Part shown: positions 40,391-53,340 of the stretch, one piece after another
Position numbering within the stretch: the stretch's first letter is position 1
How the letters are laid out: every line of letters begins with the position of its first letter
From: an uncultured Gemmatimonadota bacterium
GTDB lineage: Bacteria; JAAXHH01
Reading direction: 5' to 3'
DNA length: 64,000 bases
Assembly (NCBI GenBank): GCA_951812955.1
Contig: OX638340.1
Coordinates: 1,312,001-1,376,000 of the forward strand
Program-made: the position numbers and the translations under genes
Notes under the pieces: generated by a model
The model's database searches: none
Seen by the model: only the letters and a program-made list of their open reading frames with translations
What the model was told of the DNA's origin: nothing

Positions 40391-40588
40391 ATGAATGTCA
40401 GTAAAGAAGAAAACACCAGACTCACTCCTTCGACAGTCAAACTCAAGCGGTTAATAGGGACCTCGCCTGCTCCTCGAATGTTGACGCCATACGAAATCAA
40501 GTTGCTGCGGCAAGCCGCGAAGGAAGTGGCCGAAGTTACGGAAGAAGTCCTCGCTGAGAAAGACAGTAGTAAGGAAGAAGGATGCTGA
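40391..40588 (+). CDS. small hypothetical protein (65 aa) translationally coupled to cas3
   Basis: GAAGGG RBS. The stop overlaps the cas3 ATG (ATGCTGA). Sequence …LTPYEIKLLRQAAKEVAEVTEEVLAEKD… is helical and charged. No recognisable family. Confidence 0.45.
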   Translation: MNVSKEENTRLTPSTVKLKRLIGTSPAPRMLTPYEIKLLRQAAKEVAEVTEEVLAEKDSSKEEGC

Positions 40589-43062
40589 CCTTCGAGCGGT
40601 TTTTCTCCACAGCGTTCGGTAAAGACGTTTGTCCTTTCGCCTATCAACAGGCTCTCGCAAAGCAGGCCTGGCCAGACGCGCTCATTGCTCCGACCGGCCT
40701 TGGCAAGACCGCCGCGGTGGTGCTTGGTTGGGCCTGGAAACACGCCGTAGTCGAATCTCCAACTCCACGTCGCCTCGTTTATTGCCTGCCTATGCGCACG
40801 CTCGTCGAGCAAACCGAGCGGAATGTCAGAGAATGGCTGCGTGAACTGGGCAAAGCAAATACGGACTGGAAATCACGCCTTCCGGACCCTGAAGCCGGAG
40901 TCCATGTCCTCATGGGCGGCATGGATGAGCCGCGCTGGTTTGAAACACCTGAACGACCGGCCATCCTGATCGGAACTCAAGATATGCTGATCAGCCGCGC
41001 CCTGATGCGGGGGTACGCCATGAGCCGCTTCCGCTGGCCAGTGGACTTCGCCTTGTTGCACAACGACGCGCAGTGGGTTTTTGACGAAGTGCAATTGATG
41101 GGAGCAGGCCTGGCGACCTCTACACAACTCGAAGGTTTTCGTCGTACGTTCGGAACGGAGATCCCTTCGTGCAGTCTCTGGGTGTCAGCGACCCTTCACC
41201 CGGACTGGCTACATACGGTTGATTTCCAGCAACGTCCTACGGTGTGGCGTGTTCCATGTGATTTCCCCGACGATATACATTCATCGCAAGTCCTCAAACT
41301 GATTAACGCGTGTAAGCCAATTCAGCCGTCGTCCGTCGCGCCGATGAGTGCCAAGAAGGCCGATCTGAACGCATACGCGACAGCGTTGGCGAAGGAAACC
41401 CGGAGTCTGCACCAAGAAAACAATACGACGCTTGTGGTACTCAATACAGTCGCCCGCGCCCAAGCCGTGCATAAAGCACTTCAGAAGATGGATGTTGCGC
41501 CTGCTTGCCTTGCTCTCATCCACTCGCGGTTTCGGCCTAAAGATCGCACCCGGCAGATGGACAAGTTGCCGCAAACCGGGGAAACAAAAAAACTGATCGT
41601 AGTCGCGACGCAGGCGATTGAAGCAGGTATCGATCTATCAGCGGCGGTCCTGCTCACCGAACTCGCGCCTCCTTCGTCCCTTACCCAGCGGTTCGGTCGG
41701 GTAAATCGCTACGGTGAGTTGAACGATTCCGGTGGCGGGACGGTCCGCTGGATAGATATCATCGGAGGCGACCTCGGTGATTCGTTGGCGGCTCCGTATG
41801 AGATTAACGAACTCAAAATCGGGCGCGAGCGGATTGCCGCGTTAAAGGACGCTCGGCCCTCTAATCTCGTGCCGCCCGCATCAGACGACTGCGCCTATCG
41901 GGGTGTGATACGATCCAGGGATATGCTGGACCTATACGACACCGATCCGGATTTGACCGGCTTTGATGTCGATATCGCTCCTTACGTCCGCGATGCTGAA
42001 GATACCGATATTCGAGTTTTCTGGCGCGATTTCGACGTGCAGTCTGGACCAGAGGACCAGACTGCACCCATGCGGGACGAGCTTTGTGCGGTTCCGATTG
42101 GGCGCGCGCGTAACTGGCTTAGGGATGTCAGAAAGAAGGAAGGGCAGCGGGTATTTCGCATAGACCCGCAGGCACGAGCTAATGGGAAGGGTAGCGTTCC
42201 GACTTGGACCGCGTTCCGAGAGGAACCGTGGCCGGGTTTGGTGTTGATGGTTCATGCGAGTGCTGGGGGTTATGCACCGGACACGGGGTTTGATCAGGGT
42301 CTAAAAACAGCAGTCGAGCCTGTGAAGCTAGGAGAGGAACAGCAGACGGCAGACGAGTCGAACGACGGCGATTCCGACAGCGAGCAGAGCAGGTGCGTGG
42401 AACTGACGGATCATCTGGACCACGTGGCTTTTGAAGCCAGATACCTATGCGATGGCCTCGACGTTTGTGAAGCTTGGAAAGCCACAATCCTCCAGGCAGC
42501 GTACTGGCACGACCTCGGTAAAGCACACCCTGAGTTTCAGGCGCGAATGGTTGCAAGTAACACGGAGGCCGACCCACCACCAGAAGGGTTGCTAGCCAAG
42601 GCTCCGAAGTACGACCGCACGAAAGGACGTGCATATTTCCGGCACGAACTTGCGTCTGCACTAGCATTTCTCACACAAGCAGGCTGGGTACGCAAGGCCG
42701 ATCTTGTTGCGTACCTGATAGCCGCCCATCACGGCAAGGTACGCCTGAACTTGCGTCCCCTACCAGCCGAAAGTCGGGTAATGGGGGAGGATGGACGGCG
42801 TTTTGCTCGCGGCGTGTGGGAGGGAGACGAGATACCGTTGGTTAGTTTGGGCAATGGGGAAACATGGACAGGGGGGCCACTCGCACTATCCGTGATGGAG
42901 TTAGGCGAGCATCCGGAAACTGGGGCAAGTTGGACCGAGCGTACGCGAAATTTGCTTTCCCAGTACGGTCCTTTTCAGCTCGCTTGGTTGGAGGCACTTG
43001 TACGTATCGCCGACTGGCGGGCATCAGCAAAAGAAGAACGAGGTCATGAATATGGCGCCTAA
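40582..43062 (+). CDS. cas3: Cas3 helicase with C-terminal HD nuclease domain (type I-G architecture)
   Basis: Helicase motif I APTGLGKT and motif II VFDEVQ. C-terminal HD motifs (…AYWHDLGKAHPEFQ…, …IAAHHGKVR…). Confidence 0.85.
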   Translation: MLTFERFFSTAFGKDVCPFAYQQALAKQAWPDALIAPTGLGKTAAVVLGWAWKHAVVESPTPRRLVYCLPMRTLVEQTERNVREWLRELGKANTDWKSRLPDPEAGVHVLMGGMDEPRWFETPERPAILIGTQDMLISRALMRGYAMSRFRWPVDFALLHNDAQWVFDEVQLMGAGLATSTQLEGFRRTFGTEIPSCSLWVSATLHPDWLHTVDFQQRPTVWRVPCDFPDDIHSSQVLKLINACKPIQPSSVAPMSAKKADLNAYATALAKETRSLHQENNTTLVVLNTVARAQAVHKALQKMDVAPACLALIHSRFRPKDRTRQMDKLPQTGETKKLIVVATQAIEAGIDLSAAVLLTELAPPSSLTQRFGRVNRYGELNDSGGGTVRWIDIIGGDLGDSLAAPYEINELKIGRERIAALKDARPSNLVPPASDDCAYRGVIRSRDMLDLYDTDPDLTGFDVDIAPYVRDAEDTDIRVFWRDFDVQSGPEDQTAPMRDELCAVPIGRARNWLRDVRKKEGQRVFRIDPQARANGKGSVPTWTAFREEPWPGLVLMVHASAGGYAPDTGFDQGLKTAVEPVKLGEEQQTADESNDGDSDSEQSRCVELTDHLDHVAFEARYLCDGLDVCEAWKATILQAAYWHDLGKAHPEFQARMVASNTEADPPPEGLLAKAPKYDRTKGRAYFRHELASALAFLTQAGWVRKADLVAYLIAAHHGKVRLNLRPLPAESRVMGEDGRRFARGVWEGDEIPLVSLGNGETWTGGPLALSVMELGEHPETGASWTERTRNLLSQYGPFQLAWLEALVRIADWRASAKEERGHEYGA

Positions 43063-53218: not shown

Positions 53219-53340
53219 TCGGATCCTAACTACGACCTGTTCATTATCAATTGCGTTTCCGGGCTGCGCGGCGAGGATCGTGGGCCCTGATCCAGGGCTT
53301 TTAGACGTTTCGTTTCCAGACAGACTGATTTCAACGTATA

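What the first reader, a model, noticed from the sequence alone, without database searches (positions are those of the whole stretch)
40391..53275. Complete type I-G (I-U) CRISPR-Cas locus with a long array
The gene order is small ORF, cas3 (HD at the C-terminus), csx17/cas8u2, csb1/cas7, csb2/cas5-6, cas4-cas1 fusion, cas2, then a 35-repeat array. This is the canonical Geobacter-type I-G arrangement. Type I-G is among the less common and less studied class 1 subtypes. Here it sits in a lower-GC island (about 55% against about 64%), which suggests horizontal acquisition. The array is long, and its orientation is well supported because the pristine repeats are leader-proximal and the degenerate ones distal.
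Basis: partly seen in the sequence, partly recalled or inferred. Interest (0 to 1): 0.7.

Follow-up and report, generated by a model that had tools for sequence, protein, structure and literature searches.

The report
Complete type I-G CRISPR-Cas locus
This is an intact but ordinary type I-G CRISPR-Cas immune system with a 35-spacer array in an uncultured, probably Gemmatimonadota, genome; its one odd part is a small conserved gene at the front of the operon that comes from a different gene family and also heads other CRISPR types elsewhere.

Summary
On the + strand lie a 65-aa ORF, cas3g (HD domain at the C-terminus), cas8g/csx17, cas7g/csb1, csb2, cas4-cas1, cas2, a 209-nt leader and a 36-nt-repeat array. 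All are intact. Each Cas protein hits its I-G-specific model far above cut-off. Cas7g and Cas8g match the solved Thioalkalivibrio sulfidiphilus I-G effector. The repeat fits that system's processing rule: hairpin, 4 nt, then the 8-nt handle ATTGAAGC. The hairpin covaries across relatives.

Corrections:
- It is the Csx17 variant, not the Geobacter (Csb3) variant.
- GC is 56.6% against 61.2%, not 55% against 64%. The low-GC stretch starts near 31 kb and excludes cas4-cas1, cas2 and the array.
- The two distal repeat variants carry a compensatory stem change; they are not simply degenerate.
- No spacer target or PAM could be found.

The locus is a new member of a known kind. The unexpected part is the 65-aa ORF. 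It belongs to an unannotated family read in the +1 frame of the 3' tail of a phosphoribosyltransferase-like gene. In this window and 15 related loci that gene is lost, yet the small ORF stays under purifying selection. It sits at the head of I-G (both variants) and I-B-like cas operons or their remnants. Its function is unknown.

The parts
40391..40588 (+). 65-aa small ORF (sORF) at the head of the operon. Its stop overlaps the cas3g ATG by 7 nt (ATGCTGA). It belongs to an unannotated family with the motif GTSPAPRMLTPYEIxLLRQ.
   Evidence: 35 homologues; 201 cluster representatives by profile search. No hit in Pfam, NCBIfam, PADLOC or PHROGs. dN/dS is 0.11-0.46 against relatives. Codon-position entropy is 0.65/0.36/0.94. 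AF2 gives a helix-loop-helix model, pLDDT 79.
40582..43062 (+). cas3g: helicase-nuclease with the HD domain at the C-terminus (826 aa)
   Evidence: TIGR02621, 747.8 bits (cut-off 400); cas3_HD at residues 608-815. PADLOC Cas3g, 883.7 bits. The motifs APTGLGKT, FDEVQ and WHDLGKAH are readable in the translation.
43046..45652 (+). cas8g/csx17 large subunit (868 aa from the ATG at 43046). It carries a lineage-specific insertion of about 110 aa at residues ~137-245 (about 43454-43780).
   Evidence: TIGR04113, 610.6 bits. PDB 8B2X_M Csx17, E 3.4e-161, with the insertion gap visible. The insertion is found only in the window and L001 among 18 relatives.
45642..46598 (+). cas7g/csb1 backbone subunit (318 aa)
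   Evidence: TIGR02570 and PF09617. PDB 8ANE_A Cas7, E 5.6e-137, covering residues 8-318.
46606..48240 (+). csb2, the Cas5-Cas6 fusion and crRNA endonuclease (544 aa)
   Evidence: TIGR02165, 172.1 bits. PADLOC Cas56g, 495.6 bits. His527 in the motif CHFGLGMF is invariant in 19 of 19 relatives.
48241..48444 (+). 204-nt AT-rich spacer between the interference and adaptation modules. It holds a terminator-like hairpin at 48254-48273. It is a probable internal promoter region (inference).
   Evidence: Sequence; terminator-like site. GC3 steps from 0.54-0.59 to 0.71-0.72 across it.
48445..50157 (+). cas4-cas1 fusion (570 aa; an alternative start at 48523 would give 544 aa)
   Evidence: NF049935 Cas4g/Cas1g, 765.7 bits (cut-off 560). 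Pfam Cas_Cas4 plus Cas_Cas1. The Cys motif CPRCALAGIC and the Cas1 motif YHHTRHGRPALSLDLMEPFR are readable.
50163..50456 (+). cas2 (97 aa)
   Evidence: PADLOC Cas2g, 101.3 bits. PF09827. The exact sequence is in the protein collection.
50457..50665 (+). CRISPR leader
   Evidence: 94% identical to the leader of the closest relative, L001, while the first spacers differ.
50666..53291 (+). CRISPR array: 35 repeats of 36 nt (ATTTCCGGGGCTGCGCAGCCCCGGCCTCATTGAAGC), 35 spacers of 36-40 nt, and a degenerate terminal repeat at 53256-53291.
   Evidence: Rfam RF01330 on the + strand. Hairpin of -16.3 kcal/mol. Seven of 8 stem pairs covary across 11 related repeats, with 0 of 500 shuffles reaching the observed value.

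Best explanation
This is an intact chromosomal type I-G CRISPR-Cas adaptive immune system of the Csx17 (Cas8g1) variant.

Inferred mechanism, by homology to the characterised Thioalkalivibrio sulfidiphilus system:
- The array is transcribed from the leader on the + strand.
- The Cas6-like C-terminal domain of Csb2 cuts each repeat 4 nt after the 8-bp hairpin. This yields crRNAs of about 72-76 nt with the 8-nt 5' handle ATTGAAGC and a 3' hairpin that Csb2 keeps bound.
- About seven Cas7g subunits and Cas8g assemble on the crRNA. Cas3g is held through Cas8g.
- Once an R-loop forms next to a PAM (TTN in the Geobacter I-G system), Cas3g unwinds and degrades the target DNA.
- Cas4-Cas1 and Cas2 select and insert new spacers at the leader end.

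Shown here: the gene content, the intactness of the genes, the subtype assignment, the repeat structure with its covariation, and the orientation.

Inferred only: expression, crRNA processing, the PAM and interference activity.

The 65-aa ORF at the head of the operon is a real, selected coding sequence. It is not a known I-G part. It is an orphaned +1-frame partner of a phosphoribosyltransferase-like gene, and its role is unknown.
For: Subtype assignment:
- Subtype-specific HMMs score far above their cut-offs for Cas3g, Csx17, Csb1, Csb2 and Cas4g/Cas1g; Cas2 passes the generic cas2 model.
- The best PADLOC hit for each of the seven proteins is a I-G model.
- The profiles are covered end to end, and there are no frameshifts or internal stops.
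- Cas7g matches PDB 8ANE_A (E 5.6e-137) and Cas8g matches 8B2X_M (E 3.4e-161).

Gene organisation:
- The genes are tightly packed. Overlaps or gaps are 17 nt or less, apart from one 204-nt gap.

Repeat and array:
- The 36-nt repeat reads 4 nt + 8-bp stem with a 4-nt loop + CCTC + ATTGAAGC. This fits the published Csb2 cleavage rule: a cut 4 nt 3' of the hairpin and an 8-nt handle (PMC9638904, read).
- The hairpin is the minimum-free-energy fold.
- It covaries across 11 related repeats: 97.7% of cells paired and 7 of 8 pairs with compensatory changes.
- 32 repeats are identical, and the leader is conserved while the first spacers differ from those of L001.

Catalytic residues:
- A C-terminal His in Csb2 is invariant in 19 of 19 relatives.
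- The catalytic motifs of Cas3, Cas4 and Cas1 are readable in the translations.
Against: - No protospacer was found for any spacer, so targets and PAM are untested.
- No sigma-70-like promoter was detected in the leader or upstream of the operon, although the scan is crude and the host is not a proteobacterium.
- Cas8g carries an insertion of about 110 aa that is absent from the characterised homologue. Its effect is unknown.
- Two spacers are duplicated, which shows recombination in the array rather than acquisition.
- The equivalence of His527 to the catalytic H503 of the T. sulfidiphilus Csb2 is inferred, not aligned.
Confidence: 0.93

Rival explanations
1. The 65-aa ORF is a functional accessory of the cas operon, independent of subtype. 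It could be a small regulator, or an adaptor acting on Cas3 or on operon expression. On this view it moved with cas cassettes because it works with them.
For: - It is translationally coupled to the first cas gene, by overlap or a gap of about 10 nt or less, in the window, L001-L004, L020, L034 and L056.
- It heads Csx17-type I-G operons, Csb3-type I-G operons (where Cas3 is only 28-30% identical while the sORF is 51-62% identical) and a I-B/MYXAN-like operon.
- It is under purifying selection in frame B in 16 loci that lack the phosphoribosyltransferase (PRTase) gene. In 6 of these the other frame is broken by stops.
Against: - It is absent from I-G loci whose Cas3 is 65% identical or less, including every more distant relative examined.
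- The solved and functional T. sulfidiphilus system was reconstituted without such a protein (PMC9638904).
- It persists where the cas genes are deleted (L035, L055).
- It also occurs beside Fic, RhuM or housekeeping genes, always inside a PRTase gene.
- There is no fold or family match.
Confidence: 0.3
2. The 65-aa ORF is a hitch-hiking orphan. It is the small +1-frame partner, or a by-product, of a phosphoribosyltransferase-like (PRTase) gene that flanked the site where cas cassettes insert. It is kept because it supplies the promoter-proximal translation start and a conserved homology arm for cassette exchange. It has no CRISPR-specific biochemical role.
For: - In L039-L044, L048, L050, L057-L060 the same DNA encodes the conserved PRTase tail FGHxFDCLTQSEARYLxRSPDxDTIRxR in frame A.
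- Remnants of the PRTase C-terminus precede the sORF in L002, L020, L037 and L054.
- L004 (I-G) and L056 (I-B-like) are 91-96% identical up to the last ~13 nt of the sORF, and unrelated after that. This indicates a cassette swap with its breakpoint at the 3' end of the sORF.
- The neighbouring MNT in the window is likewise an orphaned partner of a deleted HEPN gene.
Against: - A decaying remnant should not show a pos3 > pos1 > pos2 entropy pattern, nor dN/dS of 0.1-0.46 in the non-ancestral frame.
- The second helix of the sORF lies beyond the PRTase stop and is still conserved.
Confidence: 0.5
3. The locus is an inactive relic: a fossil array and cas genes that no longer provide immunity.
For: - No spacer matches anything searchable.
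- Related loci show frequent decay: a truncated cas3 in L034 and L037, and full deletion in L035 and L055.
- No promoter consensus was found.
Against: - All seven genes are full length with conserved catalytic motifs.
- 32 repeats are perfectly identical.
- Leader-proximal spacers differ from those of a relative that shares a 94% identical leader, which implies acquisition since the two diverged.
Confidence: 0.07
4. The locus belongs to another type I subtype (I-C or I-B) and was mis-read as I-G.
For: The Cas1 domain also scores against I-C, I-D and I-B Cas1 models. The repeat ends in ATTGAAGC, as many I-C repeats do.
Against: - Those Cas1 scores are below their cut-offs, while the Cas4g/Cas1g model is above its own.
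- Csx17, Csb1 and Csb2 are exclusive I-G signatures and all are present.
- There are no Cas5, Cas6, Cas8b/c or Cas11 genes.
Confidence: 0.01

Closest known systems
Thioalkalivibrio sulfidiphilus HL-EbGr7 type I-G system (Shangguan et al. 2022, PMC9638904; PDB 8ANE, 8B2X)
   Same: Same interference gene set (cas3, cas8g/csx17, cas7, csb2) and a cas4-cas1 fusion. Cas7 and Csx17 are directly homologous (E 5.6e-137 and 3.4e-161). Both have a 36-nt repeat with a hairpin, and this repeat fits the 4-nt offset and 8-nt handle reported for that system. Neither has a cas11 gene.
   Different: Here Cas8g has an extra ~110 aa in its N-terminal domain and a longer linker before the Cas11-like C-terminal domain. 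Here csb2 and cas4-cas1 are 204 nt apart; in T. sulfidiphilus five genes lie between them. Here a 65-aa ORF precedes cas3; that paper describes no such gene.
Geobacter sulfurreducens type I-U/I-G (GSU0051-GSU0058; Almendros et al. 2019, cited in PMC9638904)
   Same: Cas3 with a C-terminal HD domain, Csb1, Csb2, a Cas4-Cas1 fusion and Cas2. A TTN PAM has been shown for that system.
   Different: The Geobacter large subunit is the ~280-aa Csb3 (GSU0052; PADLOC PDLC00996). The window has the ~870-aa Csx17 and does not hit the Csb3 model.
Bifidobacterium animalis subsp. lactis endogenous type I-G (PMC9335239, PMC12915315)
   Same: The subtype is the same. That system is used for genome editing, which shows that I-G systems are active in vivo.
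   Different: The host phylum is unrelated. The two were not compared at sequence level here.
devI, the small ORF at the head of the Myxococcus xanthus dev (type I-B/MYXAN) cas operon (recalled from memory, not checked)
   Same: It is a precedent for a very small protein gene placed first in a type I cas operon. One sORF homologue here (L056) heads a DevT/DevR-type operon.
   Different: No sequence relationship was tested. DevI is reported as lineage-restricted, whereas the family here spans several phyla and derives from a PRTase gene tail.

Membership tests
Type I-G CRISPR-Cas | Cas3 helicase-nuclease with the HD domain at the C-terminus (Cas3g) | tested here: met
   TIGR02621, 747.8 bits against a cut-off of 400; HD domain at residues 608-815 of 826. 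PADLOC Cas3g, 883.7 bits.
Type I-G CRISPR-Cas | Signature large subunit Cas8g (Csx17 or Csb3) | tested here: met
   TIGR04113 Csx17, 610.6 bits against a cut-off of 150. PDB 8B2X_M, E 3.4e-161.
Type I-G CRISPR-Cas | Cas7g (Csb1) backbone subunit | tested here: met
   TIGR02570 and PF09617. PDB 8ANE_A, E 5.6e-137, nearly full length.
Type I-G CRISPR-Cas | Csb2, a Cas5-Cas6 fusion with a catalytic C-terminal histidine | tested here: met
   TIGR02165, 172.1 bits against a cut-off of 45. PADLOC Cas56g, 495.6 bits. His527 is invariant in 19 of 19 relatives. Its identity with H503 of the T. sulfidiphilus enzyme is inferred, not aligned.
Type I-G CRISPR-Cas | Cas4-Cas1 fusion plus Cas2 as the adaptation module | tested here: met
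   NF049935, 765.7 bits against a cut-off of 560. Cas2 matches TIGR01573 and PADLOC Cas2g.
Type I-G CRISPR-Cas | No separate cas5, cas6 or cas11 genes | tested here: met
   There are no further + strand ORFs between the genes. The only extra ORF, of 65 aa, has no Cas11 or other Cas hit, and its family also occurs outside CRISPR loci.
Type I-G CRISPR-Cas | 36-nt repeat forming a hairpin that is cut 4 nt downstream to leave an 8-nt 5' handle | tested here: inconclusive
   The sequence fits exactly: hairpin, then CCTC, then ATTGAAGC. The hairpin covaries, and the rule comes from PMC9638904. The cleavage itself cannot be tested with these tools.
Type I-G CRISPR-Cas | PAM-dependent (TTN) DNA interference | not testable with these tools
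   No protospacer was found in the window, or in the phage, plasmid or IMG/VR collections.
Geobacter-type I-G (Csb3/Cas8g2 variant) | Short large subunit Csb3 (GSU0052 family) | tested here: not met
   The window's Cas8g hits only the Csx17 models (PDLC01026, PDLC01377) and not PDLC00996. True Csb3 proteins are seen in L036, L038 and L039.
Cas11 small subunit (considered for the 65-aa ORF) | Helical-bundle protein of about 100-180 aa, encoded in class 1 effector operons and confined to them | tested here: not met
   The ORF is 65 aa and its model is a helix-loop-helix. It has no PDB fold match and no family hit. Its family lies inside PRTase genes away from cas loci.

The most novel reading that the evidence does not exclude
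The 65-aa ORF is a real protein that arose in, or is maintained in, the +1 reading frame of the conserved C-terminal tail of a phosphoribosyltransferase-like gene. It survived loss of that gene and now serves as a subtype-independent head gene of type I cas operons: I-G/Csx17, I-G/Csb3 and I-B/MYXAN-like. It would act as a small regulator or adaptor of the operon or of Cas3. Its highly conserved DNA would also serve as the homology arm through which whole cas cassettes are swapped at one chromosomal site.
Probability: 0.3. Interest if true: 0.6.

Novelty: new member of a known kind. Interest (0 to 1): 0.35.

Why it matters
The locus itself adds one more intact Csx17-type I-G system from a poorly sampled lineage. 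It is close enough to the solved T. sulfidiphilus effector to be modelled on it. It also carries a natural ~110-aa insertion in Cas8g that could inform work on PAM recognition or Cas3 docking.

The broader interest lies in the small head gene. If it is functional, it would be a rare documented case of a dual-coding (overprinted) bacterial gene. It would also be a previously unlisted CRISPR-linked small protein shared across type I subtypes. The L004/L056 pair gives a concrete example of a I-G to I-B cassette replacement at a fixed chromosomal anchor.

Tried and rejected
- **Spacer targets.** No self-match in the window at 7 mismatches or fewer. BLAST of all 33 unique spacers against 50,697 phage records gave only a 30/32 match of spacer 14 to an HNH endonuclease gene of Caulobacter phages (E 3e-3). 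That is not the cognate target, and its flank is not TTN. There was no plasmid hit. Four exact or degenerate scans of IMG/VR were empty, and one call failed (72). There were no matches to the fetched loci. The PAM therefore could not be inferred.
- **Source look-up.** Exact look-ups of the window's Cas3 and Cas4-Cas1 in the contig index returned nothing. The source is known only as a 3.81-Mb NCBI/ENA contig.
- **Fold of the small ORF.** The AF2 model is confident, but Foldseek against the PDB gave only non-specific helical hairpins, with E of 2.5 or more. A member-by-member Pfam scan gave nothing consistent.
- **Cas8g insertion.** The single-sequence AF2 model had pLDDT 40 and is unusable. There was no PDB or Pfam hit.
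- **Phage-borne, Acr-like origin for the small ORF.** Rejected. No relative was found in IMG/VR and there was no PHROG hit.
- **The interference/adaptation GC3 step as a module swap in this genome.** Rejected as specific evidence, because the same step occurs in all relatives examined.
- **Similar spacer pairs suggested by TRF (221-nt period).** This is explained by the repeats alone. The spacers themselves are about 47% identical, which is the chance level once indels are allowed (own estimate).
- **Promoter scan.** It found no consensus site in the leader or upstream of the operon. This is uninformative for this phylum.
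Full report

Yes. The + strand between 40391 and 53291 carries eight tightly packed ORFs followed by an array. The ORFs are:
- a 65-aa ORF, 40391-40588
- cas3g, 40582-43062
- cas8g/csx17, 43046-45652
- cas7g/csb1, 45642-46598
- csb2, 46606-48240
- cas4-cas1, 48445-50157
- cas2, 50163-50456

Neighbouring genes overlap or lie 7 nt or less apart, with one exception: a 204-nt AT-rich gap between csb2 and cas4-cas1. A 209-nt leader follows cas2.

The array (50666-53218) has 35 repeats of 36 nt, ATTTCCGGGGCTGCGCAGCCCCGGCCTCATTGAAGC. 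Repeats 1-32 are identical and repeat 33 has lost one G. Repeats 34 and 35 are a variant. A half-degenerate 36th repeat (53256-53291) closes the last spacer. Spacers are 36-40 nt. Spacers 8 and 9 are identical, as are 17 and 18, so 33 of the 35 are unique.

**2. Subtype**

- NCBIfam places the proteins in the I-G-specific models:

| Protein | Model | Bits | Cut-off |
|---|---|---|---|
| Cas3g | TIGR02621 | 747.8 | 400 |
| Cas8g1/Csx17 | TIGR04113 | 610.6 | 150 |
| Csb1/Cas7g | TIGR02570 | 118.2 | 38 |
| Csb2 | TIGR02165 | 172.1 | 45 |
| Cas4g/Cas1g | NF049935 | 765.7 | 560 |

- Cas2 matches the generic model TIGR01573.
- Competing Cas1 subtype models (I-C, I-D, I-B) score below their cut-offs.
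- In PADLOC the best hit for each of the seven proteins is a I-G model, with end-to-end profile coverage.
- The Cas3 HD domain is C-terminal, at residues 608-815 of 826.
- Cas7g matches chain 8ANE_A (E 5.6e-137, residues 8-318). Cas8g matches 8B2X_M, 'Type I-G CRISPR Cascade large subunit CSX17' (E 3.4e-161).

One label needs correcting. The Geobacter GSU0052 large subunit is Csb3 (PADLOC PDLC00996). The window protein does not hit that model. Real Csb3 proteins appear in the related loci L036, L038 and L039. This locus is the Csx17 variant, like the characterised Thioalkalivibrio sulfidiphilus system.

**3. Integrity and likely mechanism**

- All seven genes are full length.
- Cas3 motif I (APTGLGKT), motif II (FDEVQ) and the HD motif (WHDLGKAH) are readable in the translation.
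- So are the Cas4 cysteine cluster (CPRCALAGIC) and the Cas1 YHH...DLMEPFR block.
- In an alignment of 19 Csb2 proteins, the C-terminal His527 in the motif CHFGLGMF is invariant. I infer that it corresponds to the catalytic H503 of the T. sulfidiphilus enzyme. I could not align the two directly.

Shangguan et al. (PMC9638904, read) showed four things for the T. sulfidiphilus system:
- Csb2 cuts the 36-nt repeat 4 nt 3' of the hairpin, leaving an 8-nt 5' handle.
- Csb2 stays on the 3' hairpin.
- Seven Cas7 subunits form the backbone.
- Cas3 is held through Cas8g.

That paper also cites a TTN PAM for I-G, established in the Geobacter system (Almendros et al. 2019).

The repeat here divides exactly that way: ATTT, then CCGGGGCT-GCGC-AGCCCCGG, then CCTC, then ATTGAAGC. 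The hairpin is the minimum-free-energy fold, at -16.3 kcal/mol.

Repeats from ten related arrays keep the invariant tail CC(T/C)CATTGAAGC (the first of those arrays also supplied a second, variant repeat, below) while their stems covary. In that alignment 97.7% of cells are paired. Seven of 8 pairs show compensatory changes. None of 500 shuffles reaches this, and sliding the partner columns drops pairing to 28-49%.

The distal variant repeats 34 and 35 carry a T:A to C:G compensatory change and fold slightly better, at -18.7 kcal/mol. They are an older repeat allele rather than decay. Repeat 33 (-9.2 kcal/mol) and the terminal repeat are truly degraded.

**4. Orientation and activity**

- The repeats match Rfam CRISPR-DR16 on the + strand; 17 reach the gathering score.
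- The 8-nt handle is at the 3' end of the repeat.
- The altered repeats are distal to the leader.
- The leader is 94% identical to that of the closest relative (L001), while the first spacers differ and no spacer is shared.

This supports + strand transcription, and spacer acquisition since the two lineages split.

**5. Targets**

I found none. There is no self-target in the window and no plasmid hit. Four IMG/VR scans were empty.

The only phage hit is a 30/32 match of spacer 14 to an HNH endonuclease gene of Caulobacter phages (E 3e-3). This suggests the spacer came from a phage gene of that family. It is not the cognate protospacer, so the PAM remains untested.

**6. Source and horizontal transfer**

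The exact proteins sit on a 3.81-Mb NCBI/ENA contig. The nearest locus in the species-representative genome collection is an uncultured Gemmatimonadota MAG, with 89% Cas3 identity. Next come Latescibacterota and Terriglobia MAGs at 77-80%, then Spirochaetia at 61-65%. Cas3 at 77-80% identity in different phyla is itself evidence of transfer.

Against L001, a single 10.6-kb block (40287-50847) is 89.6% identical. The syntenic flanks are 78-87% identical. The cassette therefore shares a more recent ancestor than its surroundings do.

The GC argument is weaker than stated:
- small ORF to cas2 is 56.6% GC, against 61.2% for the rest of the window
- the low-GC stretch begins near 31 kb and includes ordinary genes that are syntenic with L001
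- cas4-cas1, cas2 and the array are not low in GC
- the GC3 step between interference genes (0.54-0.59) and adaptation genes (0.71-0.72) recurs in every relative, so it is a family trait

The neighbourhood is rich in defence genes. It holds a SoFic-like protein (36570-38087), an intact MNT-HEPN pair (34657-35312), and a second MNT (39962-40246) whose HEPN partner is internally deleted.

**7. Cas8g peculiarity**

Compared with 8B2X_M, Cas8g has about 110 extra residues at positions ~137-245 and a longer low-complexity linker at 612-651. Among 18 relatives, the first insertion occurs only in the window and L001. The linker varies in all of them.

The insertion has no Pfam or PDB match. A single-sequence AF2 model was unusable, with pLDDT 40. 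Its significance is unknown.

**8. The small ORF**

*It is a real, selected coding sequence.*
- It has 35 close homologues and 201 cluster representatives by profile search.
- Its core motif, TPSxxxLxxxxGTSPAPRMLTPYEIxLLRQ, is strongly conserved.
- It has no match in Pfam, NCBIfam, PADLOC or PHROGs.
- AF2 predicts a helix-loop-helix with pLDDT 79, which has no specific PDB neighbour.
- dN/dS against nine relatives is 0.11-0.46.

*It sits at the head of cas operons of several kinds.*
- It lies directly upstream of cas3g in all relatives with Cas3 identity of 77% or more. It is absent from more distant I-G loci.
- It also heads Csb3-type I-G operons. There Cas3 is only 28-30% identical to this one, while the small protein is 51-62% identical.
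- In L056 it heads a I-B/MYXAN-like operon: Cas6, Cas3, DevT, DevR, Cas4-Cas1.

*It survives where cas genes are lost.*
- In L034 and L037, cas3 is truncated.
- In L035, the cas genes are deleted and a repeat remnant, CTCATTGAAGC, abuts its stop codon.
- In L055, only the first ~220 nt of cas3g remain.

*It marks a cassette-swap breakpoint.* L004 (I-G) and L056 (I-B-like) are 91-96% identical up to the last ~13 nt of the small ORF and unrelated after that. This is a cassette swap at a fixed anchor.

**9. Origin of the small ORF**

In eight metagenome loci, a 250-300-aa protein with a weak phosphoribosyltransferase domain lies just upstream (Pfam PF00156, 15-27 bits; one member is above the gathering score). 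Its reading frame runs on through the first ~45 codons of the small ORF. This gives the conserved tail FGHxFDCLTQSEARYLxRSPDxDTIRxR.

That tail is the normal C-terminus of a large family of at least 905 proteins, annotated 'phosphoribosyltransferase' or 'hypothetical'. Some members are fused to MqsA-type HTH domains.

I then picked PRTase genes without reference to the small ORF (L057-L060). In these too the +1 frame is open, has an ATG and matches the small-ORF profile, with E of 5e-25 and 3e-18.

Per-codon-position entropy separates the two kinds of locus:

| Loci | n | Small-ORF frame pos 1 / 2 / 3 | Reading |
|---|---|---|---|
| PRTase gene present | 8 | 0.33 / 0.46 / 0.56 | constraint in both frames |
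| cas-head or orphan | 16 | 0.55 / 0.29 / 0.91 | selection now acts on the small-ORF frame |

In the cas-head and orphan loci, the PRTase frame carries stop codons in six. The window has no PRTase homologue anywhere in its 64 kb. No relative was found in IMG/VR.

**10. Reading of the small ORF**

Two readings remain open.
- It is an orphaned partner or by-product of the PRTase gene. On this view it persists as the promoter-proximal start of the operon and as a recombination arm. I put this at about 0.5.
- It is a functional, subtype-independent accessory of type I cas operons. I put this at about 0.3.

The selection pattern argues against a mere decaying remnant. Its absence from most I-G loci, and from the reconstituted T. 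sulfidiphilus system, argues against an essential Cas role.

**11. Verdict**

The finding is correct, and the locus is an ordinary, intact member of a known and structurally characterised subtype. The novelty class is 'new member of a known kind'. Interest is modest. It is raised somewhat by the unannotated dual-frame small gene, the cassette-swap evidence and the Cas8g insertion.

Noticed in passing
window 40391-40588; L039-L050, L057-L060: The small ORF is the +1-frame reading of the conserved C-terminal tail of a phosphoribosyltransferase-like gene. Both frames are conserved where that gene is present. Only the small-ORF frame is conserved where the gene has been lost.
   Followed up: yes
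L004 9979 / L056 7206; L055 7207-7430; L035 about 8195-8210: Related genomes share one chromosomal site and the small ORF, but carry a I-G operon (L004), a I-B/MYXAN-like operon (L056) or only the first ~220 nt of cas3g (L055). L035 has lost all its cas genes, and a repeat remnant (CTCATTGAAGC) abuts the stop codon of the small ORF.
   Followed up: partly
window about 43454-43780 (Cas8g residues ~137-245): A beta-rich, Lys-rich insertion of about 110 aa in the N-terminal domain of Cas8g. It is present only here and in the closest relative, L001, and has no family or structure match.
   Followed up: partly
window 51215-51326 and 51882-51997: Two exact tandem duplications of a spacer-repeat unit (spacer 8 = 9, spacer 17 = 18). 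These probably arose by recombination or slippage between repeats.
   Followed up: no
window 53108-53218: Repeats 34 and 35 differ from the main repeat by a compensatory T:A to C:G change in the stem plus a loop change. They are an older repeat allele, not random decay.
   Followed up: yes
window 51660-51699: Spacer 14 matches HNH endonuclease genes of Caulobacter phages TMCBR4 and W2 at 30 of 32 positions (E 3e-3). It is the only spacer with any database similarity.
   Followed up: partly
window 34657-35312 and 39962-40334: There are two paralogous MNT-HEPN (DUF86) modules. The first is intact. In the second, next to the CRISPR locus, the HEPN gene is internally deleted to 40 aa. L001 has an intact version.
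   Followed up: partly
window 36570-38087: A 505-aa Fic-domain protein whose best PADLOC match is SoFic. Together with the MNT modules and the CRISPR-Cas locus it forms a small defence-rich stretch.
   Followed up: no
window 53341-57492: A 1383-aa protein with Big_2 Ig-like domains, many leucine-rich repeats and an M66-like peptidase motif starts 50 nt after the array. Its LRR units produce the 72-nt tandem repeats at 55232-55852.
   Followed up: no
window 40582-48240 versus 48445-50456: GC3 of the interference genes (0.54-0.59) is much lower than that of the adaptation genes (0.71-0.72) and host genes (0.69-0.81). The same step is seen in all related I-G loci examined.
   Followed up: partly
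window 4670-4859 (-), 8921-8994 and 9054-9129 (+): A cobalamin riboswitch (94.8 bits) and two tRNA-Arg genes (anticodons TCT and TCG).
   Followed up: no
L005 9563-12379; L024 7219-10001; L053 7273-8894: Variants of the junction between the small ORF and cas3. In L005 there is an apparent in-frame fusion of the small ORF's N-terminus to a Cas3 that lacks its first ~37 residues. In L024 and L053, insertions of 2.6 kb and 1.6 kb separate the small ORF from cas3g.
   Followed up: no
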